This document shows positions 2 through 59,913 of a DNA stretch of 64,000 nt, piece after piece (position 1 is the first letter of the stretch; each line of letters starts with the position of its first letter). This DNA is from an uncultured Kiritimatiellota bacterium (GTDB taxonomy: Bacteria > Verrucomicrobiota > Kiritimatiellia > RFP12 > DVOR01). Location: the NCBI GenBank assembly GCA_944389945.1, contig CALXOF010000001.1, positions 3,016-67,015 of the forward strand, given 5' to 3'. Under the pieces are notes generated by a model that was not told where the DNA came from, did not search any database, and saw only the letters and a list, made by a program, of their open reading frames with translations. A program made the position numbers and the translations under genes.

Positions 2-1054
2 CGCGAGGATGATGCCAAGAACGCCGAAGCGCAAATTGCAGAGGTCAAGAAGGTCCTTGCTAAGGGCAACGATGTTCTTGCTCGTTCCGTAGGCCAGACA
101 TCCTCGAAATCTAATTTCCAAGAGTTCGTTAGTGAGAGCACTAAATCGGAATCTGGTTTCCAAGAGGTCATTCGTACGCGCGTTGATGAGCTTAATCGGC
201 GTCAGAAGACTCCCACTGCCCAGCGCGTGCGTGGGCAGACCGCTCAGAATCTGCAGGAGGAGATGAACTACTCCTTTGAACGTTATATCAAAGATAAGAA
301 GTTGCCTGATAAACCGAACATCCCGCGTTTGGCTCGCCAGTTCGCCACCATTTATCACGTTTGTGACACCCTTGTGGATAACGGCACCATTCTGATTACC
401 GATGTCCAGCGTACGCGCTTTGACGGTGGCGCCGCCGAGGAAGAGGAAGAGACCACCACCCGCCGTCGTCGTTCCTCCCGCCGCAATGAGCCCGCGGAAG
501 CGACCACGTCCACCTATCCCTTGCCGGTCATCCAGGCCGCCGCGGAAGCGGATGGTGAGGGAACGGCGAAGACTGCGAAACCGGTCGACGTTGCCAAGGT
601 CGCCAAGGCCCTCAAGGACGACGGCGTGGTCTGTGAGAGCTACGCCATCACCTTCCGTGCGCCCTACGCCACCATCGCCAAGACCCTCAACGACTTCGCC
701 GCCGACGACCTCTTCATCGTCGTCACCGACCTCTCCATCACCAGCCAGAGCCTGGTCGAGACCAAGGCCGAAGAGCTCGTTCGCAAGCGCCGCACCATCC
801 GTGACTCCGCGCTCAATCGCGCCCGGGCCTCTGCCGAGAATGCCGCGCGCGCCGAGGAGCTCGCCAAGCGCGGACTCTTCGAGGGTGTCGCCGTCGACCA
901 GCGCCTCGTCTCCGACCCCGAGACCGCTGATCCTCTCCAGATTGTCCTCCGTTTCGACGTCTACACCGTCGAAGCTCCCAAGGCTGACGAAGCACCCGAC
1001 GCTCCCACGGCCCCTGAAGCCGGCGCGGCCGCACCCGAGAAGGAAGGGAACTGA
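2..1054 (+). CDS. Hypothetical protein, 5'-partial (open from window start); acidic/Arg-rich linker 'EEEEETTTRRRRSSRR', Ala/Pro-rich tail
   Basis: Frame of ORF 227..1054 stays open back to nt 2. Coding-like codon usage. Stop TGA at 1052-1054 is 2 nt before the next ATG, indicating translational coupling. Confidence 0.5.
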   Translation, partial: REDDAKNAEAQIAEVKKVLAKGNDVLARSVGQTSSKSNFQEFVSESTKSESGFQEVIRTRVDELNRRQKTPTAQRVRGQTAQNLQEEMNYSFERYIKDKKLPDKPNIPRLARQFATIYHVCDTLVDNGTILITDVQRTRFDGGAAEEEEETTTRRRRSSRRNEPAEATTSTYPLPVIQAAAEADGEGTAKTAKPVDVAKVAKALKDDGVVCESYAITFRAPYATIAKTLNDFAADDLFIVVTDLSITSQSLVETKAEELVRKRRTIRDSALNRARASAENAARAEELAKRGLFEGVAVDQRLVSDPETADPLQIVLRFDVYTVEAPKADEAPDAPTAPEAGAAAPEKEGN

Positions 1055-1056
1055 CC

Positions 1057-2325
1057 ATGGCCAAAGATCTTCCACCCATCCTGCGTCAATACGACCGCCT
1101 CATCGCTGTCGGCGTCTTGGCTGCCGTCGCAATCTCCTTGATTTACCTTGTTGTCTTCGGCATCAAGGCCAGGGACGATGAGGAGAAATTCAAGACCAGC
1201 GTCGCCGCGCCGGACAGCGAGGTGAAGCCCCTCGAGGACTTCTCCGCCCTCTCTGCGGCAATCGCCGCCGTTGGCAAGCCCGATCGTGCCTCCACCCTCA
1301 AGGTGCGCGCCTCCGCCGCGGAGCCCGACCTCTTCACCCCCGAGCGCCGCGTCTTCTGCATCAAGTGCGCCAGCCCCATCACCTTCGAGGGCGAGGACCG
1401 CGACGAGGCGCAGAAGTGCTCCATCTGCGGTGCCGATCAGCCCGTCAAGGAGAAGATCGACTACACCACCGTCGACAGCGACGAAGACGGCCTGCCCGAT
1501 GTCTGGGAGACCGCCAACAAGCTCGACCCCAACGACCCCGCCGACGCCGATGCCGACAACGACAGCGACGGCTTCACCAACATCCAGGAATACCAGGCCA
1601 AGACCGACCCCAACGACCCCAAGAGCCACCCCTCCTACGATGGCTTCCTCCGCGTGGGCGAAATCACCGGCACCAAGGTCCCCCTGCGCATCATCAACGC
1701 CATGCGCCTCCCCGATGAGACGGGCGCCGACGGCAAGCCGAACCAGGCCTACCGCGTGACCTTCGTCTCCGTCGCCGAAGACGGCACCCCCGGCACCGCG
1801 AACATCGTCGCCAAGACCGGCAAGCCCGTCTACAAGAGCAAGGGCGTCATCGAGACCAGTTCCGCAATCGGCAAGAGCGGTTTCTCTATCGTCAGCTACA
1901 ACCGTGTGGACAAGAAGCCCATCAAGGTTGGTCCGCATGGCACCACGCAGCTGATTGAGGTCTCCACCGCCGTTGTCAAGCGCGACTCCGATGGCAAGAC
2001 CGCCACCCTCACCCACTGGGATAGGAACAACCCTGATTGGCCCGGCGAGCCCCTCCTCGAGCAGAAGGTCGAGCTTTCCTGCGAGCTCTCCGGCGTTGAG
2101 CCCGCCACCCTCATCGAAGGCGGCACCTACCGCGTCAAGAGCGACACCTACGTCGTCAAGAAGATCAATCCCGACGCCAAGACCGTCACCCTGGTGCATC
2201 GCGCGGATAAGCGCGAGGTCGTCGTCGGCGAGTCTGGGCCGGTCGCGGCCGCCGCCAAGCCTGCGGCCGCCAAGCCCACCCCGGCCCCGGCCGCGGCTCA
2301 GCCTTCGGGAGGTCAGAAGAAATGA
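1057..2325 (+). CDS. Membrane-anchored protein with Cys4 zinc-ribbon (CIKC...CSIC) and thrombospondin-type-3/dockerin-like Ca-binding repeats (DSDEDGLPDVWE, DNDSDGFTNIQE)
   Basis: N-terminal TM helix 'LIAVGVLAAVAISLIYLVVFGI'. CxxC...CxxC motif. Repeated DxDxDGxxDxxE motifs. Ala/Pro-rich C-terminus. Coupled to the upstream gene. Confidence 0.6.
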   Translation: MAKDLPPILRQYDRLIAVGVLAAVAISLIYLVVFGIKARDDEEKFKTSVAAPDSEVKPLEDFSALSAAIAAVGKPDRASTLKVRASAAEPDLFTPERRVFCIKCASPITFEGEDRDEAQKCSICGADQPVKEKIDYTTVDSDEDGLPDVWETANKLDPNDPADADADNDSDGFTNIQEYQAKTDPNDPKSHPSYDGFLRVGEITGTKVPLRIINAMRLPDETGADGKPNQAYRVTFVSVAEDGTPGTANIVAKTGKPVYKSKGVIETSSAIGKSGFSIVSYNRVDKKPIKVGPHGTTQLIEVSTAVVKRDSDGKTATLTHWDRNNPDWPGEPLLEQKVELSCELSGVEPATLIEGGTYRVKSDTYVVKKINPDAKTVTLVHRADKREVVVGESGPVAAAAKPAAAKPTPAPAAAQPSGGQKK

Positions 2326-2475
2326 CCTCAACCCTTGATTTTGCGGGCTTCCAGCCCGTTGTCGTAGCCCCACGCGCAACCTTTGCCGCCAAGGGCAAAA
2401 CCGCAAAAAGCAATTTTTTCGCCACCGCCGGGTTACCCGGCTTGGCGAAAAAATAAGCCCGATGCGGTTTTTGAG

Positions 2476-2504
2476 TTGAAATAATCGTTGCGATGGGCTA
2501 TACT
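2476..2504 (+). promoter_or_regulatory. Sigma70-like promoter for the secretin gene (TTGAAA-17 nt-TATACT)
   Basis: TTGAAA at 2476-2481 and TATACT at 2499-2504 with a 17-nt spacer. GGAG Shine-Dalgarno at about 2541. ATG at 2558. Confidence 0.35.
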
Positions 2505-2557
2505 GACATCACGATTTGGATTTGGGCGAGGCCCAATAAAAGCGGAGAACACGTGCT

Positions 2558-5500
2558 ATGACACACTTTGTGCGCTATGCAATGGTCGGCGTGATGGTCG
2601 CCGGGGCGTCTTACTGCGCCCACGCGCAAGAAGATGACCTCGATGCGCTCTTGAGCGATTTGCTCGCCGAAGAGTCCGCCGTCGAGCAGGAGGAGCCTCA
2701 GGCCGAGCCGGCCCCTGAGGTCCCCGCCGAGCCCGAGGTCGCCGAACTTCCCGAGGCTCCCGCGCCAGAGGTCTTGGACGACGTGCCCGCGCCCGTTGTG
2801 GAAGCGGCCGACGAAGTGGCTGGGGAGGCGTTGGATGCCGCCCTCGACACGCTCGTCGATGAAGCCGAGACCCCCGCCGAGCCCGAAGTGCCCGCCCCTG
2901 TCGAGGAAGTCGCCGAGGTGGCCGAGGAGCCCGCGCCTGAGGTGCCCGCCCCCGCCCCCGTTGAGGAGGCCGTCGCTGAGGTGGTCGAGGAGCCCGCGCC
3001 CGAAGTCCCCGCCGAGGAAGTCGCCGAGATCCCCGCTGAGGTGCCTGCGCCTGAAGTTCCTGCCGAGGAAGTCGCTGAGGTTCCCGCTGAGGAGCCTGCG
3101 CCTGCCGCCCAAGCCGACGAAGCGGCTGGTGCTTTGCTGGCAGGTGTCGATGCCGAAGCCCCCGCCGTTGAGCTCTCCGAAGAGGACAAGGCTTTCAACG
3201 AACTCGAGGCGCTCATGCGCCTCAAGAATCTGGGCCTCGACAACCACGCCAAGGCTTGCCTCAACCGAGCCCGTGAAATCATGAGCACGCCGCCCGAGCC
3301 CGGCAAGGCCATGGATCACTACAAGGCCGCCATCAAGATGTACACCGACGCCAAGGAGTACTTCCGCGAGCTCGAGGCCAACCTCCCCCTCAAGGATGAG
3401 TGCGACCGCGGCATCCGCGAGGCTCGCTACCGTCAGGCCTTCTCCCTCTTCGCCAACGACAAGGATTACGGCGCCGCCCTCAACCTCGCCCAGCAGGTGC
3501 AGCGCGAAGGTCACCCCAAGGCCGCCGCCCTCATCGCCGCCATCAACGCTGAGGTCAATCGTCCGCCGGAAATCCGTCCCACCCCCGTTCTCCCCGAGTT
3601 CGCTCAAGAGGATTACCAGCAGGCCCGCCTCGACGTGATGGAGCGTTACAAGCGCGCCACCGTCTACTACCACCTCGCCAAGTACAAAGAGGCCATCGAC
3701 CAGCTCGACCTCATCCTCCGCGATGACCCCAACAACGAGGATGCCATCAGCCTCCGCGAGCGCATCGCCAAGCGCAAAGATAGCCGCGACCGTCAGCTCC
3801 AGGCCTCCACCCACGCCGAGATGATCGACCAGGTCTCCTTCAACTGGACCCCTGTCGGCGCTCTCGCCCGTGACTCCGAGGAGCTCTACGCGCCCACCGT
3901 CTCCACCGGTACCGCCGCCCCCGTCGACGAGCAGGGCCAGCGCGACGAGCAGGCCGTCATCGCCAAGCTCCAGTACATCCGCCTCCCCGAGTTCTCCATT
4001 CGCCCGCCGAGCACCCTCGCCGACGCCGTGCAGATGTTCGCCGAGATGTCCCGCACCTATGACCGTCCCGAGCTTCCTCCGGAAGAGCGCGGCCTCTCCT
4101 TCGTGCTGAACATGAACTCCGGCGCCCCCACTCCCGCCGCCGACGTCGAGGCCGATCCCTTCGCCACCACCGACACTTCCGCCTCCAGCGGCCTGCCGCC
4201 CATCCAGAACATCAGCCTCACCTGGGTCACCCTCAAAGAGGCGCTCGACATGGTCTGCATGGTCACCAACACCAAGTACATCGTCCGCGGCAAGAACGTC
4301 ATCGTCGTTCCCAACACCTTCGTTGAAGGTGAGATGGAGACCCGCACCTACAACGTCATGGGCGACCTGATGGACAAGGTCAGCGGCGTCCAGGCCGACC
4401 TCCAGGCCTCCTCCGACTTCGGTTCCTCCTCCGGCGACGACTGGGGTAGCATGGACACTGCCTCCCTCTCCTCCGGCGGCGGCTCCGCCACCCCCGATCA
4501 GCTGAAGAGCTTCTTCCAGGAGCTCGGCGTGCCCTTCGAGGGCGATGCGCGCATCGTTTACCTCCCCACCATCGGTAAGCTCCGCGTCACCAACACCGCC
4601 CAGAACCTCGCCATCTTCGAAGGCATCCTCGAAGAGCTCAACGTCACCCCCTATCAGATCGAGGTTGAGGCTCGCTTCGTCGAAGTCAGCCAGGAAGACC
4701 TCAACTCCCTCGGCTTCGAGTGGCAGCTCAATAGCGACATCGTCGGCACCATCGGTTCCGGCATCGACTGGGCTGACAGCGCCATCACCGGCAACCCCTC
4801 CGGCGGTTCTGGTGCGGGCGGCATCGGCGCCACCGGTGACCACGTCTTCCGTCCCGGCTCCATCAGCGGTACCGGCGATGGCAACGTTGCCATCCACGGA
4901 GGCTCCTTCAACAACGGCATGCGCTTCCTCGGTGACTCCTCCACCTACGCCAACCGCATCAACTTGAGCGGCGCCACCCTCGCCCCCAACGACGAGTTCC
5001 TCGGCTTCTCCGCCGTCTTCGGCCAGATGGATGTCTCCCTCATCCTCCATATGCTCGCCCAGCGCACCGACACCGACATGCTCTCCAGCCCGAAGGTGCT
5101 CGCCCGCCCGAACGAAGAGGCCCTCATCCGCGTCGTGACCGAGTGGATTTACCCCACCGAGTTCGACGTCACCGAGCTCGACAACGACGACAACAACGAC
5201 AACAACAACAACTGGGGCATCGGCAACGGCGGCACCACCGTCCAGGCCCCGCCCGTCAAGTTCGCCGTTGAGCCTCAGTCCTTCGAGAAGCAGGATGTCG
5301 GTGTCTCCCTCCAGGTCATCCCGCAGGTCTCCCAGGAAGGCCAGATGATCAACCTCACCGTCGCCCCCAAGGTCGTGGAATATCTCGGCGACTTCGAGTA
5401 CGGCATGCAGGTCCCCTACGTGCAGTACGGCATGACCGGTGGCGTCGTCACCTCCGCCGAGGTCGAGTACTACCAGGTCTCCATGCCTCAGCCCATGTTC

Positions 5501-5809
5501 CACTTCCGCGAGATCAACACCTCCCTCTCCGTCTACAACGGCTCCACCGTGGTCATGGGCGGTTTGATCACCGAGAACCGCAACTCCTTCGAGGATAAGA
5601 TTCCGATTCTGGGTGACCTGCCCTTCATCGGCTTCCTCTTCCGCTCCACCGGTGAGTACAGCGAGAAGCGCAACCTCCTCGTCTTCCTCACCGCCCGCCT
5701 CGTCGATCCCGCCGGCCGTCCCCTCAAGACCGCCACCGATGGTCGCATGGGTGCCGGCGCCATGAACACCAGCGCCTCCGACACCATGTCCTCCACCGTC
5801 CAGCCCTAA
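2558..5809 (+). CDS. Giant secretin (GspD/PilQ family) with N-terminal acidic PEVPA-type repeat region and TPR-like segment
   Basis: Signal peptide 'MVGVMVAGASYCAHA'. Approx. 2690-3120 encodes tandem (E/A)P(A/E)PEVPA repeats. TPR-like 'YYHLAKYKEAIDQLDLIL'. C-terminal secretin domain motifs 'VVMGGLITE...IPILGDLPFIGFLFRS...NLLVFLTARLV'. Confidence 0.85.
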   Translation: MTHFVRYAMVGVMVAGASYCAHAQEDDLDALLSDLLAEESAVEQEEPQAEPAPEVPAEPEVAELPEAPAPEVLDDVPAPVVEAADEVAGEALDAALDTLVDEAETPAEPEVPAPVEEVAEVAEEPAPEVPAPAPVEEAVAEVVEEPAPEVPAEEVAEIPAEVPAPEVPAEEVAEVPAEEPAPAAQADEAAGALLAGVDAEAPAVELSEEDKAFNELEALMRLKNLGLDNHAKACLNRAREIMSTPPEPGKAMDHYKAAIKMYTDAKEYFRELEANLPLKDECDRGIREARYRQAFSLFANDKDYGAALNLAQQVQREGHPKAAALIAAINAEVNRPPEIRPTPVLPEFAQEDYQQARLDVMERYKRATVYYHLAKYKEAIDQLDLILRDDPNNEDAISLRERIAKRKDSRDRQLQASTHAEMIDQVSFNWTPVGALARDSEELYAPTVSTGTAAPVDEQGQRDEQAVIAKLQYIRLPEFSIRPPSTLADAVQMFAEMSRTYDRPELPPEERGLSFVLNMNSGAPTPAADVEADPFATTDTSASSGLPPIQNISLTWVTLKEALDMVCMVTNTKYIVRGKNVIVVPNTFVEGEMETRTYNVMGDLMDKVSGVQADLQASSDFGSSSGDDWGSMDTASLSSGGGSATPDQLKSFFQELGVPFEGDARIVYLPTIGKLRVTNTAQNLAIFEGILEELNVTPYQIEVEARFVEVSQEDLNSLGFEWQLNSDIVGTIGSGIDWADSAITGNPSGGSGAGGIGATGDHVFRPGSISGTGDGNVAIHGGSFNNGMRFLGDSSTYANRINLSGATLAPNDEFLGFSAVFGQMDVSLILHMLAQRTDTDMLSSPKVLARPNEEALIRVVTEWIYPTEFDVTELDNDDNNDNNNNWGIGNGGTTVQAPPVKFAVEPQSFEKQDVGVSLQVIPQVSQEGQMINLTVAPKVVEYLGDFEYGMQVPYVQYGMTGGVVTSAEVEYYQVSMPQPMFHFREINTSLSVYNGSTVVMGGLITENRNSFEDKIPILGDLPFIGFLFRSTGEYSEKRNLLVFLTARLVDPAGRPLKTATDGRMGAGAMNTSASDTMSSTVQP

Positions 5810-5826
5810 ACGCGGCGAAACACACC

Positions 5827-5857
5827 AAAAAGCCCCGGCACCGCCGGGGCTTTTTTG
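5827..5857 (+). terminator. Rho-independent terminator after secretin
   Basis: Hairpin agccccggc-acc-gccggggct followed by TTTTTTG. Confidence 0.7.
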
Positions 5858-5902: not shown

Positions 5903-6009
5903 AAACCCTTAAGGGTCCGCCCTGAGACCCTATAGTGGTCCGAGGTCAACCACTATAGTGGTCGGGGTCGAGACCCTATAGTGGTCCAGGTCGAAACCCT
6001 TAAGGGTTC
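5903..6009. repeat. MITE-like palindrome array (copy 1): aacccttaagggt ends flanking 3 x gacc(c/a)ctatagtggtc
   Basis: Perfect 16-bp palindrome GACCACTATAGTGGTC and variants at a 24-25 bp period. Terminal 13-bp palindrome AACCCTTAAGGGT. Same element at 21688, 35648 and (variant) 51724. Confidence 0.8.
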
Positions 6010-6099: not shown

Positions 6100-6370
6100 C
6101 CGGTGCGCGCGAAGCCAGATGGGCTAACGCCGGTCGCTTTGCGGGCTAAACGCCCGCTGATCGCTCCTTCCCGCCCATCGTCTTCGCGCTTGAAGGAGAG
6201 AAGGAGGGGTGTGGGGCAAAGCCCCTCCCCGACAAAACCAAACTTCCAAGCCTCCAAGCTTCTAAACTTCCTCATTTCCTTTTGGCGCAGGAAAGTGGGG
6301 CGCGGGAGGGCGCACGACTGTGCGCCCGGCGTTAGCGCCCCACCTTTCCTGCAAGATTTGCTTCTTTGCG
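6100..6370. repeat. Left arm of about 250-bp inverted repeat flanking the lipoprotein gene
   Basis: The stretch gccggtcgctttgcgggctaaacgcccgctgatcgctccttcccgcccatcgtcttcgcgcttgaagg...gcgcccggcgttagcgccccacctttcctgcaagatttgc reappears reverse-complemented at about 7205-7420. A related copy lies at about 12095-12215. Confidence 0.6.
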
Positions 6371-6408
6371 GTTCTTTCATTTTTCCGGATTGTATTGGCG
6401 GGGGCTTA

Positions 6409-6438
6409 CTTGACAGGGATGGGGAGGTGTGCTAGAGT
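6409..6438 (+). promoter_or_regulatory. Sigma70-like promoter (TTGACA-18 nt-TAGAGT) for lipoprotein gene
   Basis: TTGACA at 6409-6414 and TAGAGT at 6433-6438. AAGGAG ribosome-binding site at about 6511. Confidence 0.35.
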
Positions 6439-6525
6439 ATAGCCGTTTTGGACGTAAGTCCCGGGGTGGCATTCCCCTTTCCGTGCCGCGCCGTGTCTGT
6501 AGGAAAGGGAAGGAGAAACCAACCA

Positions 6526-7142
6526 TGAAACTCACTCCGTTCGCCTGCGCGGCGTTGGGCCTCATTGCCCTCACCGGTTGCACGTCTTATTACACCGAGC
6601 GCGGCGCTCAGCCGCTCGTCAACCCCGGCGCGTTGGCCGGCCCCGAATACCACACCGATTGGCAGGTCGCCGACAAGAAGGTCTCCGCCGAAGGCTCCGC
6701 CAAGGTCATCTTCTGGGTCTTCACCAGCGGCGAGCCCAAGTACGCCGAGGTCCCCGGCTTCACCGCCGGCATCTTCCCCATCGACCGCGCCATCTACAAG
6801 GCCAAGGCCGCCGCCACCTATGAGGCCTGCGCCGCCAACAAGGCCGACGCGCTCCTCGGCGTGACCTACTCCTACAAAATCACCGACTACTTCTTCACCT
6901 CCGTCGTCGAGTGCCAGGTGCAGGGCTTCCCGGCCACCATCACCGGTGTCAAGATTCAGGAAGACCGCCCCGTCCTCATCGACAAGACCAAGGAGCTCAT
7001 CCGCGTCAAGCCCTATGAGTCCATTCAGGATCTCTCCGGCACTCCGCGTATCGGCGTCTACGATTACCGTGGTGCCAAGACTTCCGTCGGTGGCGCCGCC
7101 GCCACGTCCGACTATCCCTGGCCGCTCTCCCTCTTCATGTGA
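6526..7142 (+). CDS. Lipoprotein of unknown function
   Basis: Start chosen at ATG 6526 ('MKLTPFACAALGLIALTGC', lipobox LTGC) with an AAGGAG Shine-Dalgarno, rather than the track start at 6429. Confidence 0.65.
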
Positions 7143-7163: not shown

Positions 7164-7194
7164 GGCCCTCGGCTCCCCGCCGAGGACCTTTTTT
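7164..7194 (+). terminator. Rho-independent terminator after lipoprotein gene
   Basis: ggccctcggc-tcccc-gccgaggacc stem (one mismatch) followed by TTTTTTG. Confidence 0.55.
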
Positions 7195-7204
7195 GTGTCG
7201 GGCC

Positions 7205-7420
7205 AAGCCTTTTTCCGGAGACTGCGCTCAATACTGTCCAGGGAAAATAGGCCGCAAAGACGCGACTCTTGTAGGAAAGAAGGGGCGCCAACGCCGGGCG
7301 CATATCCGTGCGCACTCCCGCGCCCCACTTTCCTGCGCCGAAGATACTTGAGAGACGGCCCAAGCGCGAAGACGATGGACGGGAGGGAGCGGTCAGCGGA
7401 CGTTTAGCCACAAAGCGACC
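7205..7420. repeat. Right (inverted) arm of the repeat flanking the lipoprotein gene
   Basis: Reverse complement of the 6115-6360 segment. Confidence 0.6.
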
Positions 7421-57456: not shown

Positions 57457-58707
57457 GTGGGCATTATGGCGACGTTCAGTTACGTGGCGCTGAATAAACA
57501 AAAGGCGAAGGTGTCGGGGGCGATAGAGGCCGCCGACCGGCGGGGTGCACTCGCGTCGCTGAAGGGGCAGGGGTTGATGCCGCTCTCCATCACGGAGGAA
57601 CAGGGCGCGAAGAAGGCGTCGCAGACGCAGGCTTCGTTTTGGAAGCTTTCGTCGGGCCCGGCGAAGAAGATGAAGCCGGGCGAAGTGTTGCTCTTTACCT
57701 CCGAGCTGGCAGACCTGATTGAGGCCGGCATGACGTTGGGGGCGGCGCTGAACTCCTTGGCGAACCAGGGCGACCCGAACAGCGGCATCTGCGTGGTTGC
57801 GGCTGATTTGCGCGACCGGATTATGCGCGGCGAGGCCTTCTCGGACGCGGTGGGGGCGCACCCGGATACCTTCCCGGCGATTTATGGCAACATGGTGCGC
57901 GCGGGCGAGGCCTCGGGCGCGATGGTGGAGGTGTTGCGGCGTCTGGGCGAGCACTACGAGCGCAACCAGTCGATGCGGAGCAAGATTATCTCGGCGCTGA
58001 CCTATCCGTGCATTGTGTTGGGTATGGGCGTGCTGGCGGTGATCTTTGCGATGGTCAAGATCGTGCCGCAGTTCACGGAGCTTTTCTCGAGCATGGGCAA
58101 GGAGCTGCCTTTGCCGACGCGGATGCTGATGGGGATGAGCGAGGGGCTCATCAAGTATGGCGTCTTCATCGGCATCGGGCTGGTCTTTGGCGTCGTCGCC
58201 CTGCGGAAGTGGTGCAAGGGCGCGGGGCGCGCGCGGTGGGACCGCTTCAAGCTTCGGATGCCGTTGGTGAAGGGCTTGGTGGCGAGCGGGGCGTACGCGT
58301 CGCTGGCCTATACGTTGCAGACGCTCTTGGCCAACGGCGTGAACGTGCTTCAGGCGCTGCGCATCTCCGAGGAGACCTGCGGCAACGCCGTGATCGAGGC
58401 CGAGTTGCGCAAGGCTCGCGAACGCGTGACCGACGGCACCACCATCTCCGGTCCGCTGGCGCAGAGCGGCGTCTTCCCGCGCTTGATGACCGACATGATG
58501 GCCCTGGGCGAGCAGACGGGCAACCTGCCCGGCGCCCTTGGCCGCATCGGCAAGCGTTATGAGGCCGAGCTTAATCGCAACATCAAGATTTTCACCACCG
58601 CCTTGGAGCCCATCTTGATTCTCTTGGTGGCGCTGGTGGTGGGTTTCGTGGCCATCGCCATCCTCTCGGCGGTCTTCTCCGCCACCTCGGCGATGGGCCA
58701 GGCCTAA
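57457..58707 (+). CDS. GspF/PilC-family inner-membrane platform protein (T2SS/T4P)
   Basis: Two T2SSF domains. 'FSYVALNKQKAKVSG...' N-terminus typical of GspF. Three TM segments. Start may be Met4, at 57466. Confidence 0.85.
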   Translation: MGIMATFSYVALNKQKAKVSGAIEAADRRGALASLKGQGLMPLSITEEQGAKKASQTQASFWKLSSGPAKKMKPGEVLLFTSELADLIEAGMTLGAALNSLANQGDPNSGICVVAADLRDRIMRGEAFSDAVGAHPDTFPAIYGNMVRAGEASGAMVEVLRRLGEHYERNQSMRSKIISALTYPCIVLGMGVLAVIFAMVKIVPQFTELFSSMGKELPLPTRMLMGMSEGLIKYGVFIGIGLVFGVVALRKWCKGAGRARWDRFKLRMPLVKGLVASGAYASLAYTLQTLLANGVNVLQALRISEETCGNAVIEAELRKARERVTDGTTISGPLAQSGVFPRLMTDMMALGEQTGNLPGALGRIGKRYEAELNRNIKIFTTALEPILILLVALVVGFVAIAILSAVFSATSAMGQA

Positions 58708-58728: not shown

Positions 58729-59118
58729 ATGAAGGTCAAGAACCGCAAACTCCGCCGCGCAGGCTTCACCCTGGTGGAACTCCTGCTCGTGATCACCATT
58801 CTGGGCATCCTCGGCACCGTGGTGGTGATGAACTTCGGTGATGTGGGTGGCGATGCCCGCAAGGAAACCACACGCCAGTCCATCCTGGCCATCGACCAGG
58901 CCGTGACCGTCTACAACACCAAGGTCGGCCATATGCCCAAGGACATCAGCGATCTCACTAAGCCTATCAACGATAGCAAACAAGGGTTGCTGAAGTCCAA
59001 AGATGTCAACGATGCCTGGGGCAATCCCTTCGAGTTCAAGATGGAAGACGGTTCGTACACCATCCGTTCCGCCGGCCCTGACGGCCAGATGAACACCGAA
59101 GACGACATCACGAATTGA
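58729..59118 (+). CDS. GspG-like major pseudopilin with class-III (prepilin) signal
   Basis: 'RRAGFTLVELLLVITILGILGTVVV' cleavage/methylation motif. 'DAWGNPFEFK...YTIRSAGPDGQMNTEDD' GspG-type C-terminus. Confidence 0.8.
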   Translation: MKVKNRKLRRAGFTLVELLLVITILGILGTVVVMNFGDVGGDARKETTRQSILAIDQAVTVYNTKVGHMPKDISDLTKPINDSKQGLLKSKDVNDAWGNPFEFKMEDGSYTIRSAGPDGQMNTEDDITN

Positions 59119-59127
59119 GGACCGGCC

Positions 59128-59559
59128 ATGAAGCGAATCTTTGCCTTGTTTTGCCTTGTCGCAGTGGGTGCCTCCATCGGGTGCGATGGAGAGTCGTCCT
59201 CTGCGGACAAGGACGCCCAATTCAAAGAGGACGTCCACACTATCGCGGACTTTATTCGGGCCAATGAGGAAAGAAGCGATGAGATGGCCTCGCAAGCTCG
59301 CGTGGAGACAACGGGTAAAGCCATTGAAGCCCTCGACCAGGCCGTTCTTATCTATCAAATCAAAGTCGGGCGCTTGCCTATGAGTCTTCGTGATCTCACC
59401 AAGGGCATCAACGACGACGACGAGGGCCTGCTGAAGTCCAACGACGTCATCGACGCTTGGGGCAATCCCTTCGAGTACAAGGTGGACGGTAAGAAGTACA
59501 CCATCCGCTCCGCCGGCCCCGACGGCCAGATGAACACCGAAGACGACATCACGAACTGA
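59128..59559 (+). CDS. GspG-like globular domain fused to a lipoprotein signal peptide (paralog 2)
   Basis: 'MKRIFALFCLVAVGASIGC' lipobox replaces the prepilin helix. C-terminal 90 aa are about 70% identical to the upstream pseudopilin ('DAWGNPFEYKVDGKKYTIRSAGPDGQMNTEDDITN'). Confidence 0.7.
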   Translation: MKRIFALFCLVAVGASIGCDGESSSADKDAQFKEDVHTIADFIRANEERSDEMASQARVETTGKAIEALDQAVLIYQIKVGRLPMSLRDLTKGINDDDEGLLKSNDVIDAWGNPFEYKVDGKKYTIRSAGPDGQMNTEDDITN

Positions 59560-59568
59560 GGACTAGCA

Positions 59569-59913
59569 ATGAAGCGGATTTTGGGCTTGCTTTGCCTTCT
59601 TACCGTGGGCGCCTCCATCGGGTGCAATGGCGATGATTTGGACACGGCCGTCCGTAAGGAGACCACGCGCCAGACTATCGCCGCCATCGATTTCGCCATC
59701 TCTACCTATAAAGCCAAGAACAACAAGGTGCCCACGAGCCTGACTGATTTGGCCGTAGGTGTCGCCGGAGAGCAACCGCTTGTGAGTGCGGAGATGTTCA
59801 ACGATGCCTGGGGTAATCCCTTGGAGCTCTCGGTCAATGCGGCGATGAAGTACACCATTCGCTCCGCCGGCCCCGATGGCAAGATGAACACCGAGGACGA
59901 CATCACGAACTGA
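59569..59913 (+). CDS. GspG-like globular domain fused to a lipoprotein signal peptide (paralog 3)
   Basis: 'MKRILGLLCLLTVGASIGC'. 'NDAWGNPLELSVNAAMKYTIRSAGPDGKMNTEDDITN'. Confidence 0.7.
   Translation: MKRILGLLCLLTVGASIGCNGDDLDTAVRKETTRQTIAAIDFAISTYKAKNNKVPTSLTDLAVGVAGEQPLVSAEMFNDAWGNPLELSVNAAMKYTIRSAGPDGKMNTEDDITN

What the first reader, a model, noticed from the sequence alone, without database searches (positions are those of the whole stretch)
2..5809. Secretin with fused acidic PEVPA-repeat and TPR N-terminus, preceded by a Zn-ribbon/TSP3-repeat membrane protein operon
The 1083-aa secretin lacks the usual neighbouring PilMNOP or GspC genes. Instead it follows a 2-gene operon (hypothetical of about 350 aa or more, then a TM protein with a Cys4 ribbon and Ca-binding DxDxDG repeats). 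The secretin itself carries about 140 aa of (E/A)PAPEVPA repeats and a TPR-like block. TPR pilotins are normally separate (Tgl/PilF), so this may be a fusion. The repeat region is encoded by imperfect tandem DNA repeats that could vary in length.
Basis: partly seen in the sequence, partly recalled or inferred. Interest (0 to 1): 0.5.

Follow-up and report, generated by a model that had tools for sequence, protein, structure and literature searches.

The report
Kiritimatiellia copy of Akkermansia pilus-like operon
The region is the last three genes of a five-gene operon already known from the gut bacterium Akkermansia (Amuc_1098-1102, "MUL2"). It builds the outer-membrane pore and inner-membrane scaffold of a pilus or secretion machine, so it is a fairly ordinary new member with a few unexplored details.

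Summary
The sequence features are real, but the framing as an orphan secretin is wrong. The window cuts a conserved five-gene operon: Amuc_1102-like, PilM-like, Amuc_1100-like (ORF1, cut at the window edge), Amuc_1099-family (ORF2), then an Amuc_1098-family secretin.

- **PilM:** it lies two genes upstream, just off the window.
- **TPR-secretin fusion:** it is confirmed, but it is a family trait published for Akkermansia PilQ in 2016.
- **Cys4 ribbon and two TSP3 calcium-type repeats in ORF2:** they are invariant or nearly so across 36 homologues.
- **Acidic Pro/Glu/Ala/Val linker:** it spans 171 aa with net charge -52. It is hypervariable, and near-identical strains differ by exactly one 51-nt (17-aa) repeat unit.
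- **N-terminal motif:** a short DDLDxLL motif at the mature N-terminus is conserved.

Gene order holds in Kiritimatiellia relatives whose secretins are only about 30% identical. Three such loci have CoaE and Rho downstream, the two genes also drawn beside Akkermansiaceae MUL2 loci.

Verdict: a new member of a known kind, of modest interest.

The parts
2..1054 (+). ORF1: the C-terminal 350 aa of an Amuc_1100-family protein, cut by the window edge. Full length is 400-415 aa in L006 and L007, with an N-terminal TM helix, giving a PilO/GspM-like bitopic topology.
   Evidence: NCBIfam Amuc_1100_fam scores E 3.8e-6 on the fragment and E 8.4e-17 on the full-length L007 copy. Both are below the curated cut-off. 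Pfam PF28028 is precomputed on the L006, L007 and L011-L013 copies. The TM helix is at aa 8-33 of the L007 copy.
1057..2325 (+). ORF2: an Amuc_1099-family protein of 422 aa. It has a TM anchor, a Cys4 ribbon, two TSP3 repeats, beta domains that include a GspC/PilP-like HR domain, and an Ala/Pro tail.
1096..1167 (+). ORF2 transmembrane anchor, about aa 14-37.
   Evidence: The hydropathy scan peaks at 2.86 over aa 11-39. AF2 models a helix at aa 7-47.
1357..1428 (+). ORF2 Cys4 ribbon-like motif: C101-x2-C104 ... C121-x2-C124.
   Evidence: All four Cys are invariant in 36 homologues down to 22% identity. They are also kept in L011-L013. Zn_Ribbon_1 and DZR each match 14 of 36 members, with a best E of 4.5e-5.
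1468..1626 (+). Two TSP3-type (DxDxDG) calcium-binding-type repeats in ORF2, aa 138-190.
   Evidence: Pfam TSP3_bac scores E 1.4e-4 here and matches 36 of 36 homologues, with a best E of 4.2e-12. D140, E151, D167, D169, D171, G172, F173, N175 and E178 are invariant.
1636..2229 (+). ORF2 beta-rich periplasmic region, aa 194-391. It contains the HR-like domain. Placing that domain in the last ~65 aa is my inference from strand count.
2326..2557 (+). Spacer of 232 nt between ORF2 and the secretin. It holds a sigma70-like promoter match (TTGAAA-17-TATACT at 2476-2504) and a GGAG ribosome-binding site.
   Evidence: The small ORF at 2322-2456 that is called in L006 and L007 has no counterpart among the genes called in L011-L013 and is probably spurious.
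2558..5809 (+). Amuc_1098-family secretin of 1083 aa.
2558..2626 (+). Sec signal peptide, aa 1-23, with cleavage at AHA|Q. It has no lipobox.
   Evidence: Read directly from the sequence. The same pattern appears in homologues.
2633..2665 (+). Conserved acidic amphipathic motif DDLDALLSDLL at the mature N-terminus, aa 26-36.
   Evidence: Q24, D27, L31 and L32 are conserved in at least 90% of 41 homologues. The motif [DE][DEASG]L[DE][DASTE]LL occurs 75 times in the N-terminal 520 aa of 120 homologues and never in the remainder. AF2 models a short helix at aa 27-36 with low confidence.
2666..3178 (+). Acidic Pro/Glu/Ala/Val disordered linker, aa 37-207. It includes the polymorphic 51-nt tandem repeat at 2987-3122.
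   Evidence: pLDDT is below 50. Length varies between strains.
3179..3847 (+). Three-TPR helical domain flanked by two long helices, aa 208-430.
   Evidence: AF2 gives pLDDT 83-95. The profile hits consensus TPR proteins in the PDB at E 1.6e-13. TPR_2 matches 22 of 26 homologues.
3929..4702 (+). Periplasmic N domains, aa 458-715: an N0/STN-like domain followed by two ring-building-type alpha/beta domains.
5054..5707 (+). Secretin beta-barrel domain (Pfam aa 833-1050), with an Asp/Asn-rich loop at aa 877-896.
5827..5855. Bidirectional intrinsic-terminator-like hairpin with a 13-bp stem, 18 nt after the secretin stop codon. It marks the end of the operon.

Best explanation
The finding is the distal part of a five-gene operon in a Kiritimatiellia (PVC superphylum) bacterium. 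The operon is the counterpart of Akkermansia muciniphila Amuc_1102-Amuc_1098, the 'MUL2' pilus-like locus.

It encodes the envelope-spanning scaffold of a type IV filament machine (type IV pilus or type II secretion class):
- Off-window lies a PilM actin-fold protein fused to a TM helix and a periplasmic tail. This is a GspL-like, or PilM+PilN-like, topology.
- ORF1 is a bitopic Amuc_1100-family protein, described in the literature as PilO/PilN-like.
- ORF2 is a bitopic protein. Its periplasmic part carries a Cys4 knuckle, two calcium-type TSP3 repeats and a GspC/PilP-type HR domain.
- The last gene is a secretin with N0 and N domains and a three-TPR domain on its N-terminal side.

Inferred mechanism: the ORF2 HR domain docks on the secretin N0 domain, as GspC does on GspD and PilP on PilQ. 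This couples the outer-membrane pore to the inner-membrane PilM/Amuc_1100 platform. The ATPase, platform protein and pseudopilins are encoded elsewhere. One GspF plus GspG cluster lies at 57.4-59.9 kb of this window.

The acidic linker is a disordered tether of variable length. It carries a conserved N-terminal DDLDxLL peptide whose partner is unknown.

Shown here: homology, synteny, domain content and repeat polymorphism. Inferred: the docking interaction, the topology and the physiological role. By analogy with MUL2, that role would be glycan acquisition or attachment.
For: - **Family matches:** all five genes match the five Akkermansia-named NCBIfam families: Amuc_1098 E 5e-118, Amuc_1099 64 bits (cut-off 50), Amuc_1100 E 8e-17, Amuc_1101 E 2e-127 and Amuc_1102_rel E 6.5e-4. 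The PilM TIGR01175 model scores 151 bits against a cut-off of 133.
- **Gene order:** it is identical in L006 and L007, which carry the same or a nearly identical secretin. It is also identical in three distant Kiritimatiellia loci with 29-35% secretin identity.
- **Flanks:** those three loci have CoaE and Rho downstream. These are the genes drawn next to Akkermansiaceae MUL2 loci (PMC13174399).
- **Secretin N0:** the N0/STN fold is detected.
- **Topologies:** from the hydropathy scan.
- **Literature:** TPR plus secretin in Amuc_1098 (PMC4960237). The Amuc_1098-1102 cluster is abundant in envelope fractions (PMC5332112). Amuc_1100 is described as PilO/PilN-like and the cluster as MUL2, important for mucin acquisition (bioRxiv 10.64898/2025.12.30.696933).
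- **Operon boundary:** a terminator lies directly after the secretin.
Against: - Four of the five NCBIfam scores are below the curated equivalog cut-offs, so these are distant relatives and not strict equivalogs.
- No ATPase, prepilin peptidase or class III-signal pilin is in the operon. The Amuc_1102-like protein has an ordinary Sec signal peptide. The filament, if any, is unidentified.
- The link to the GspF/GspG cluster 52 kb away is conjecture.
- I could not retrieve Akkermansia sequences to compare directly. I also could not read Davey 2023 or Hughes 2025.
Confidence: 0.8

Rival explanations
1. The operon is a type II secretion-type outer-membrane and assembly-platform module (GspL/M/C/D equivalents). 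It exports folded enzymes such as glycoside hydrolases or sulfatases and does not assemble a surface pilus.
For: - The best generic secretin model is GspD (E 1.1e-43), ahead of PilQ (4.8e-30).
- The best structural match for ORF2 is the GspC HR domain from the GspC-GspD complex.
- A PilM fold fused to a TM helix and a periplasmic tail is the GspL topology.
- A GspF gene and a GspG pseudopilin with a canonical class III signal are in the window.
- The operon has no pilin with a class III signal.
Against: - The PilM domain passes the PilM cut-off, not a GspL model.
- The Akkermansia literature treats the locus as pilus-like or attachment-related.
- The secretin is below the GspD cut-off (149.6 against 351).
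- T2SS and T4P are one superfamily, so this rival differs from the best explanation only in the machine's output.
Confidence: 0.35
2. The N-terminal TPR block is a fused pilotin that lets the secretin target and assemble itself in the outer membrane without a separate lipoprotein.
For: - The TPR domain is conserved in all homologues.
- No conserved pilotin-like lipoprotein accompanies the operon. The lipoprotein ORF at 6522-7142 is absent from L001 and is not among the genes called in L011-L013.
- Ottman 2016 made the same comparison.
Against: - The profile search of PDB sequences gives only generic TPR proteins.
- The domain has no lipid anchor. It sits at the end of the secretin that faces the inner membrane in solved secretins (established secretin architecture).
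- Known TPR pilotins are lipoproteins with about six TPRs (my own knowledge).
Confidence: 0.25
3. The acidic repeat tract is only a lineage-specific, functionally neutral disordered spacer that expands and contracts by replication slippage.
For: - Sequence and length are hypervariable. The TPR domain starts anywhere from aa 113 to aa 490 in 112 homologues.
- Indels match whole repeat units between strains that are 99.5-99.9% identical elsewhere.
- pLDDT is below 50.
- The Amuc_1098 profile begins aligning only at aa 251, so the tract lies outside the Akkermansia-based model.
Against: - An acidic tract (11-44% D/E, at least 25% in most, and in most of them almost no K or R) is present in every one of 112 homologues down to about 25% identity.
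- It always tethers the conserved DDLDxLL motif, which in some lineages is repeated inside the tract.
- This pattern suggests selection on composition and on the terminal motif.
Confidence: 0.4

Closest known systems
Akkermansia muciniphila Amuc_1098-Amuc_1102 cluster (MUL2 locus; Ottman 2016/2017, Davey 2023)
   Same: - Same five gene families in the same order: Amuc_1102-like, PilM-like, Amuc_1100, Amuc_1099, then secretin.
- Same secretin architecture, with an N-terminal three-TPR domain and a C-terminal secretin domain.
- In distant Kiritimatiellia loci, the same downstream CoaE and Rho neighbours.
   Different: - The host is Kiritimatiellia, not Verrucomicrobiales.
- Scores for four of the five families are below the equivalog cut-offs.
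- The secretin is about 180 aa longer than the 907-aa Amuc_1098 (length from PMC4960237). A long acidic linker precedes the TPR block, which starts at aa 208 here and at aa 71 in Akkermansia.
- I could not check whether Akkermansia Amuc_1099 has the Cys4 ribbon. The NCBIfam alignment starts only at the TSP3 repeats, at profile position 105.
Type IVa pilus PilMNOPQ alignment and secretin subcomplex (Pseudomonas, Myxococcus, Neisseria)
   Same: - A PilM-fold cytoplasmic protein.
- Bitopic inner-membrane partners.
- An HR-domain protein that is expected to contact the secretin N0 domain.
- A secretin encoded last in the operon.
   Different: - PilM is fused to a TM and periplasmic segment.
- ORF2 is anchored by a TM helix, whereas PilP is a lipoprotein. 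ORF2 also carries Cys4 and TSP3 modules that PilP lacks.
- The secretin has a TPR domain and an acidic tail where PilQ has AMIN domains.
- The secretin is below the PilQ model cut-off (104.9 against 284).
Type II secretion GspC-GspD (with GspL/GspM)
   Same: - PilM plus a TM helix plus a periplasmic tail resembles GspL.
   Different: - ORF2 has no PDZ or coiled-coil domain.
- No sequence-level GspC, GspL or GspM match was found.
- The secretin is below the GspD cut-off.
Polymorphic N-terminal repeat region of Neisseria meningitidis PilQ (octapeptide 'small basic repeats'; from my own knowledge, not checked here)
   Same: A copy-number-variable, low-complexity repeat tract sits near the N-terminus of a pilus secretin, and its length differs between strains.
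   Different: The tract here is strongly acidic (net -52) and Pro/Glu/Ala/Val-rich, with 17-aa units. It precedes a TPR domain.
TPR pilotins PilF, PilW, Tgl and TadD
   Same: TPR proteins associated with secretin biogenesis. Ottman 2016 drew this comparison.
   Different: Those proteins are separate lipoproteins. Here the TPR block is part of the secretin, has no lipobox, has only three repeats and shows no specific structural or sequence match to pilotins.

Membership tests
Secretin superfamily (Pfam PF00263) | The C-terminal secretin domain scores above the gathering threshold. | tested here: met
   [not shown]
Amuc_1098 family type IV pilus outer membrane protein (NF042912) | The score reaches the curated equivalog cut-off of 750 bits. 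| tested here: not met
   395.3 bits, E 5e-118, aligned nearly end to end (profile positions 53-804 of 805). It is a clear homologue but below the equivalog threshold.
Amuc_1098 family type IV pilus outer membrane protein (NF042912) | The architecture is an N-terminal three-TPR domain plus a secretin domain, as described for Amuc_1098. | tested here: met
   compared with PMC4960237.
Amuc_1098-1102 / MUL2 locus | The five-gene synteny is Amuc_1102, PilM, Amuc_1100, Amuc_1099, secretin. | tested here: met
   L006 and L007 and L011-L013. The window itself holds only the last three genes.
Amuc_1099 family pilus-like system protein (NF042425) | The score reaches the curated cut-off of 50 bits. | tested here: met
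   64.1 bits. All 36 homologues match, with a best E of 9.4e-28.
Amuc_1100 family (NF038287 / PF28028) | The score reaches the curated cut-off of 180 bits. | tested here: not met
   26.5 bits for the window fragment and 61.6 bits for the full-length L007 copy. Precomputed Pfam PF28028 hits exist in all related loci.
PilM (TIGR01175), off-window gene | The score reaches the curated cut-off of 133 bits. | tested here: met
   151.2 bits. The Amuc_1101_fam score of 426.7 bits is below its cut-off of 650.
GspC/PilP HR-domain proteins | An HR beta-sandwich domain is present. | tested here: inconclusive
   [not shown]
GspC/PilP HR-domain proteins | The HR domain binds the secretin N0 domain. | not testable with these tools
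   This needs a complex prediction or an experiment. Both partner folds are present.
GspD (TIGR02517) / PilQ (TIGR02515) | The score reaches the curated cut-off. | tested here: not met
   GspD scores 149.6 against 351.35, and PilQ scores 104.9 against 284.35.
TPR pilotins (PilF, PilW, Tgl, TadD) | A separate outer-membrane lipoprotein with a specific pilotin TPR fold. | tested here: not met
   [not shown]
Bacterial TSP3 repeat (PF18884) | The repeat scores above the gathering threshold of 25 bits. | tested here: inconclusive
   22.1 bits in the window protein, just below the cut-off. All 36 homologues match at E <= 1, with a best E of 4.2e-12. The DxDxDG residues are invariant.
Zinc ribbon | A CxxC...CxxC knuckle pair that binds metal. 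| tested here: inconclusive
   The four Cys are invariant, and 14 of 36 homologues hit Zn_Ribbon_1 or DZR. Metal binding as opposed to two disulfides in the periplasm cannot be decided here.

The most novel reading that the evidence does not exclude
Two linked proposals. First, the Amuc_1099 family, which the papers I could read call uncharacterised, is the missing PilP/GspC-type coupler of the PVC 'MUL2' machine. It would be stiffened by a periplasmic Cys4 knuckle and calcium-binding TSP3 repeats. Second, the secretin regulates or pilots itself through a conserved N-terminal DDLDxLL peptide. That peptide hangs on a polyanionic tether of strain-variable length and would dock into the adjacent three-TPR domain, either its own or a neighbour's, or onto an inner-membrane partner. 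The TPR domain most resembles the EEVD-peptide-binding class.
Probability: 0.15. Interest if true: 0.55.

Novelty: new member of a known kind. Interest (0 to 1): 0.3.

Why it matters
- **Distribution:** the Akkermansia MUL2/Amuc_1100 locus, much studied for host effects and mucin foraging, also occurs in Kiritimatiellia. There it keeps the same gene order and, in distant members, even the same flanking genes. The locus is therefore probably ancient in the PVC group and not an Akkermansiaceae speciality.
- **A testable role:** ORF2 receives a proposed function as a GspC/PilP-like coupler. That would complete a PilMNOPQ-like set.
- **Handles for experiments:** the invariant periplasmic Cys4 motif, the calcium-type repeats and the conserved N-terminal peptide on a variable acidic tether can all be mutated.
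- **Limits:** none of this changes the overall picture of type IV filament machines.

Tried and rejected
- **Profile search of 1.84 billion representatives with the ORF2 alignment.** Giant multi-TSP3 proteins swamped it (48,009 hits), so it said nothing about distant Amuc_1099 relatives.
- **Third homologue search, with the PilM-like protein.** It was meant to reach Akkermansia or Verrucomicrobia loci. The 120 listed hits carried only Kiritimatiellae, Candidatus Spyradenecus or no name, so a direct comparison with Akkermansia was not possible.
- **Foldseek of the ORF2 model against the PDB.** It found no hit at E <= 0.001. The afdb50 library was not available.
- **Sequence searches of the PDB.** The Amuc_1100-like protein found nothing. 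The ORF2 profile gave only non-significant zinc-ribbon and EF-hand hits.
- **Papers.** Davey 2023 and Hughes 2025 are not held, so what I say about them is second-hand.
- **Lipoprotein ORF at 6522-7142 as a candidate pilotin: rejected.** It is absent from L001, whose ORF2 is 93% identical, and it is not among the genes called in L011-L013. It is bracketed by inverted copies of a dispersed intergenic repeat.
- **Small ORF at 2322-2456, called as a gene in L006 and L007: rejected.** It has no counterpart among the genes called in distant loci.
- **Rfam scan of the whole window.** No match.
- **Electrostatic pairing of the linker with the TPR domain.** The TPR domain is not basic (net -4 here, -5 to +7 across homologues), so simple charge complementarity is not supported.

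Full report
**What is in the window**

Three co-directional ORFs occupy 2..5809.
- ORF1 (2..1054) runs off the left edge of the window.
- ORF2 (1057..2325) encodes 422 aa.
- ORF3 (2558..5809) encodes 1083 aa.

All three have the high third-position G+C typical of real genes in this 63-68% G+C sequence. A 13-bp-stem terminator-like hairpin at 5827-5855 follows the ORF3 stop codon. A sigma70-like promoter match sits in the 232-nt spacer upstream of ORF3.

**Identity of the genes**

NCBIfam assigns the three ORFs to three families named after consecutive Akkermansia muciniphila genes.
- ORF3 matches Amuc_1098_fam at E 5e-118, with aa 251-1057 aligned to profile positions 53-804 of 805.
- ORF2 matches Amuc_1099_fam at 64.1 bits, above the cut-off of 50.
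- ORF1 matches Amuc_1100_fam weakly, at E 3.8e-6 on the fragment.

Contigs that carry the same or a nearly identical secretin (L006, L007) show what the window cuts off. The operon begins with an Amuc_1102-like gene (271 aa), followed by a PilM_2/FtsA-fold gene (578-592 aa). Then come the Amuc_1100-family gene (400-415 aa), ORF2 and the secretin.

Scanned directly, the upstream L007 proteins give these scores:
- Amuc_1101_fam: E 1.8e-127.
- PilM TIGR01175: 151 bits, above the cut-off of 133.
- Full-length Amuc_1100_fam: E 8.4e-17.
- Amuc_1102_rel: E 6.5e-4.

The organism belongs to the Kiritimatiellia. ORF2 is 93% identical to a gene in MAG CALXMT01, 'uncultured Kiritimatiellaeota bacterium'. 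The few homologues that carry a source name are labelled Kiritimatiellia or Kiritimatiellae.

**Synteny**

Three distant loci have secretins only 29-35% identical to this one: L011 (GCA_018001225.1), L012 and L013 (GCA_046766155.1). All keep the order Amuc_1102, PilM, Amuc_1100, ORF2 homologue (353-368 aa), secretin. All three are followed by CoaE and Rho.

The legend of the Akkermansiaceae MUL2 synteny figure lists dephospho-CoA kinase and Rho among the neighbouring genes (PMC13174399). This points to an old, vertically kept locus in the PVC group. That paper does not mention Kiritimatiellia.

**What the literature already says**

[quoted passage not shown] They described it as an N-terminal BAM-like domain with three TPRs 'resembling the pilotin proteins' plus a C-terminal secretin domain. 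They called this structure 'unique but conserved' in Verrucomicrobia and Lentisphaera.
- Ottman 2017 (PMC5332112) defined the Amuc_1098-1102 cluster.
- Later work calls the cluster MUL2. It reports that the locus is important for mucin acquisition and describes Amuc_1100 as structurally similar to PilO/PilN. Amuc_1101 is described as PilM, Amuc_1102 as archaeal-pilin-like (PDB 7DSZ), and Amuc_1099 as uncharacterised.

**The secretin in detail**

The AF2 model was built from 41 sequences and has mean pLDDT 62. It gives the following layout.

| Residues | Feature | Confidence |
|---|---|---|
| 1-23 | Signal peptide, cleaved at AHA\|Q | low pLDDT |
| 27-36 | Short helix | low pLDDT |
| 37-207 | Disordered linker | pLDDT < 50 |
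| 208-430 | Helical domain: three helical hairpins between two long helices | pLDDT 83-95 |
| 458-715 | alpha/beta N domains | mostly moderate to good |
| about 815-1050 | Secretin barrel | mixed |

A profile of aa 205-440 from 26 homologues hits consensus TPR proteins in the PDB at E 1.6e-13. Individually, 22 of the 26 sequences hit Pfam TPR_2.

- Generic three-TPR peptide-binding co-chaperone domains: FKBP38, Tah1, STI-1 and Tom70.

No pilotin (PilF, PilW, TadD or BamD) is in the top 60. A pilotin role is therefore possible but has no specific support.

**The acidic tract**

Residues 37-207 are A 26%, E 26%, P 18% and V 15%. The tract has no basic residue and net charge -52. The DNA carries imperfect tandem repeats. 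The clearest has a 51-nt period at 2987-3122.

All 112 homologues with an alignable TPR domain have such a tract. The TPR domain starts anywhere from aa 113 to aa 490 (median 226). The tracts are 11-44% D/E (at least 25% in most), and in most of them K and R are nearly absent.

Length varies at strain level.
- Among relatives about 97% identical in the TPR domain, whose C-terminal parts all measure 868-871 aa, the tract measures 154-210 aa.
- Inside the window protein's own 90%-identity cluster, 15 listed members range from 1053 to 1089 aa. One of them, P0513, is simply shorter at the N-terminus. ORF2 in its cluster is 422-423 aa.
- Nearly all alignment gaps fall within aa 1-200. Outside the tract, identity is 99.2-100%.
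- Two variants (P0505, P0514) lack exactly one 17-aa (51-nt) unit, and another (P0503) has a 22-aa insertion.

The predicted length variability is confirmed between samples. Read-level variation within one sample could not be tested.

The mature N-terminus carries a conserved acidic amphipathic motif, AQ|DDLDxLLxDL.
- Q24, D27, L31 and L32 are at least 90% conserved in 41 sequences.
- Variants of the motif persist in homologues with about 29% identity.
- In some lineages the motif recurs inside the tract, for example 'GDLDDLLGEL' three times in L013.
- The pattern occurs 75 times in the N-terminal 520 aa of 120 homologues and never in the remainder.

A conserved peptide on a hypervariable tether suggests a docking motif, but its partner is unknown. 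The TPR domain is not basic (net -4), so simple charge pairing is not the explanation.

**ORF2**

The alignment of 36 homologues, down to 22% identity, shows invariant C101, C104, C121 and C124. The core of two TSP3-type repeats is also invariant: D140, E151, D167, D169, D171, G172, F173, N175 and E178. Both features hold in L011-L013.

Across the 36 members, all hit TSP3_bac and all hit Amuc_1099_fam. Fourteen hit the zinc-ribbon models.

The AF2 model (pLDDT 82) has a TM helix, a small ribbon, the repeat region and about 200 aa of beta structure at pLDDT about 90.

This clustering of secretin-coupling HR domains is specific. It rests, however, on one predicted model and one program. Foldseek found nothing significant, and no Pfam PilP or T2SSC match exists.

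With its N-terminal TM anchor, ORF2 has the GspC layout. The Cys4 motif would lie in the periplasm. Whether it binds zinc or forms disulfides cannot be decided here.

**Overall mechanism**

Shown here:
- A PilM-fold protein with an added TM helix (aa 375-400) and a periplasmic tail of about 180 aa.
- A bitopic Amuc_1100-family protein.
- A bitopic protein whose model contains an HR domain.
- A secretin with an N0 domain.

Inferred: these four form the trans-envelope scaffold of a type IV filament machine. They would be equivalent to PilM(N)-PilO-PilP-PilQ or GspL-GspM-GspC-GspD, with the HR domain docking on N0.

The operon has no ATPase, no platform protein and no class III-signal pilin. The Amuc_1102-like protein has an ordinary Sec signal peptide. 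Those parts must be encoded elsewhere.

The window does contain a GspF/PilC gene (57457-58707) and a GspG pseudopilin with a canonical G|FTLVE signal (58729-59118). Linking them to this secretin is conjecture. Whether the machine makes a pilus or secretes proteins is open. The generic models slightly favour GspD over PilQ.

**Surroundings**

The rest of the window holds housekeeping genes, PEP-CTERM proteins and toxin-antitoxin-like genes. It has no Rfam match.

The spacer between the secretin and SMC varies between relatives.

**Verdict**

The 'orphan secretin' framing reflects the window edge and sequence divergence. The TPR fusion is already known. This is a new, distant member of the Amuc_1098-1102/MUL2 kind in Kiritimatiellia.

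The modest new points are these:
- The HR-domain assignment for the Amuc_1099 family.
- The invariant Cys4 motif and TSP3 modules.
- The strain-variable acidic tether with a conserved terminal motif.

Noticed in passing
window 59128-59559 and 59569-59913 (next to 57457-58707 and 58729-59118): A GspF/PilC gene and a canonical GspG pseudopilin (..RRAG|FTLVELLLV) are followed by two paralogues. These keep the GspG globular domain (..AWGNPFE..YTIRSAGPDGQMNTEDDITN) but replace the hydrophobic pilin helix with a lipoprotein signal (..VGASIGC). They look like lipid-anchored pseudopilin heads, which is unusual.
   Followed up: partly
window 6144-6371 and 7252-7409 (inverted copies); further copies near 12.2, 20.2, 22.2, 24.6, 32.3-32.6, 33.7 and 37.3 kb: A dispersed intergenic repeat family. 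Two inverted copies bracket a 205-aa lipoprotein gene (6522-7142, LTGC lipobox). That gene has its own promoter-like site (6410-6438) and terminator-like hairpin (7167-7185). The cassette is absent from the close relative L001, and L006 has two extra genes at this spot.
   Followed up: partly
window 5914-6000: A 23-nt tandem repeat of about 3.3 copies lies just downstream of the operon terminator, overlapping a 32-nt imperfect inverted repeat (5927-6007). Related copies occur near other loci (L001 1-110, L006 3620-3735).
   Followed up: no
window 440-520 (ORF1 aa ~148-175): The Amuc_1100-like protein contains an odd charged low-complexity insert, GGAAEEEEETTTRRRRSSRRNEPAE. It is also present in the L007 copy.
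   Followed up: no
window 5179-5212 (secretin aa ~875-886): An Asp/Asn-rich loop (DNDDNNDNNNN) inside the secretin barrel domain is encoded by a 9-nt tandem repeat of 3.8 copies. A Gly-rich, low-confidence insertion (aa 728-821) precedes the barrel.
   Followed up: no
window ~20.7-21.4 kb and ~32.8-35.5 kb (L008 13787-14431; L009 13448-16126): Several small PEP-CTERM (PF07589) proteins, one with a Laminin_G_3 domain. PEP-CTERM proteins are also prominent in the Akkermansia literature.
   Followed up: no
L002-L004 (Woesearchaeota MAG contigs): The paired TSP3 module of ORF2 (aa 130-190) is about 60% identical to segments in archaeal (Woesearchaeota) contigs. It also matches tens of thousands of giant multi-TSP3 proteins, so it is a widely shared module and not a family marker.
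   Followed up: no
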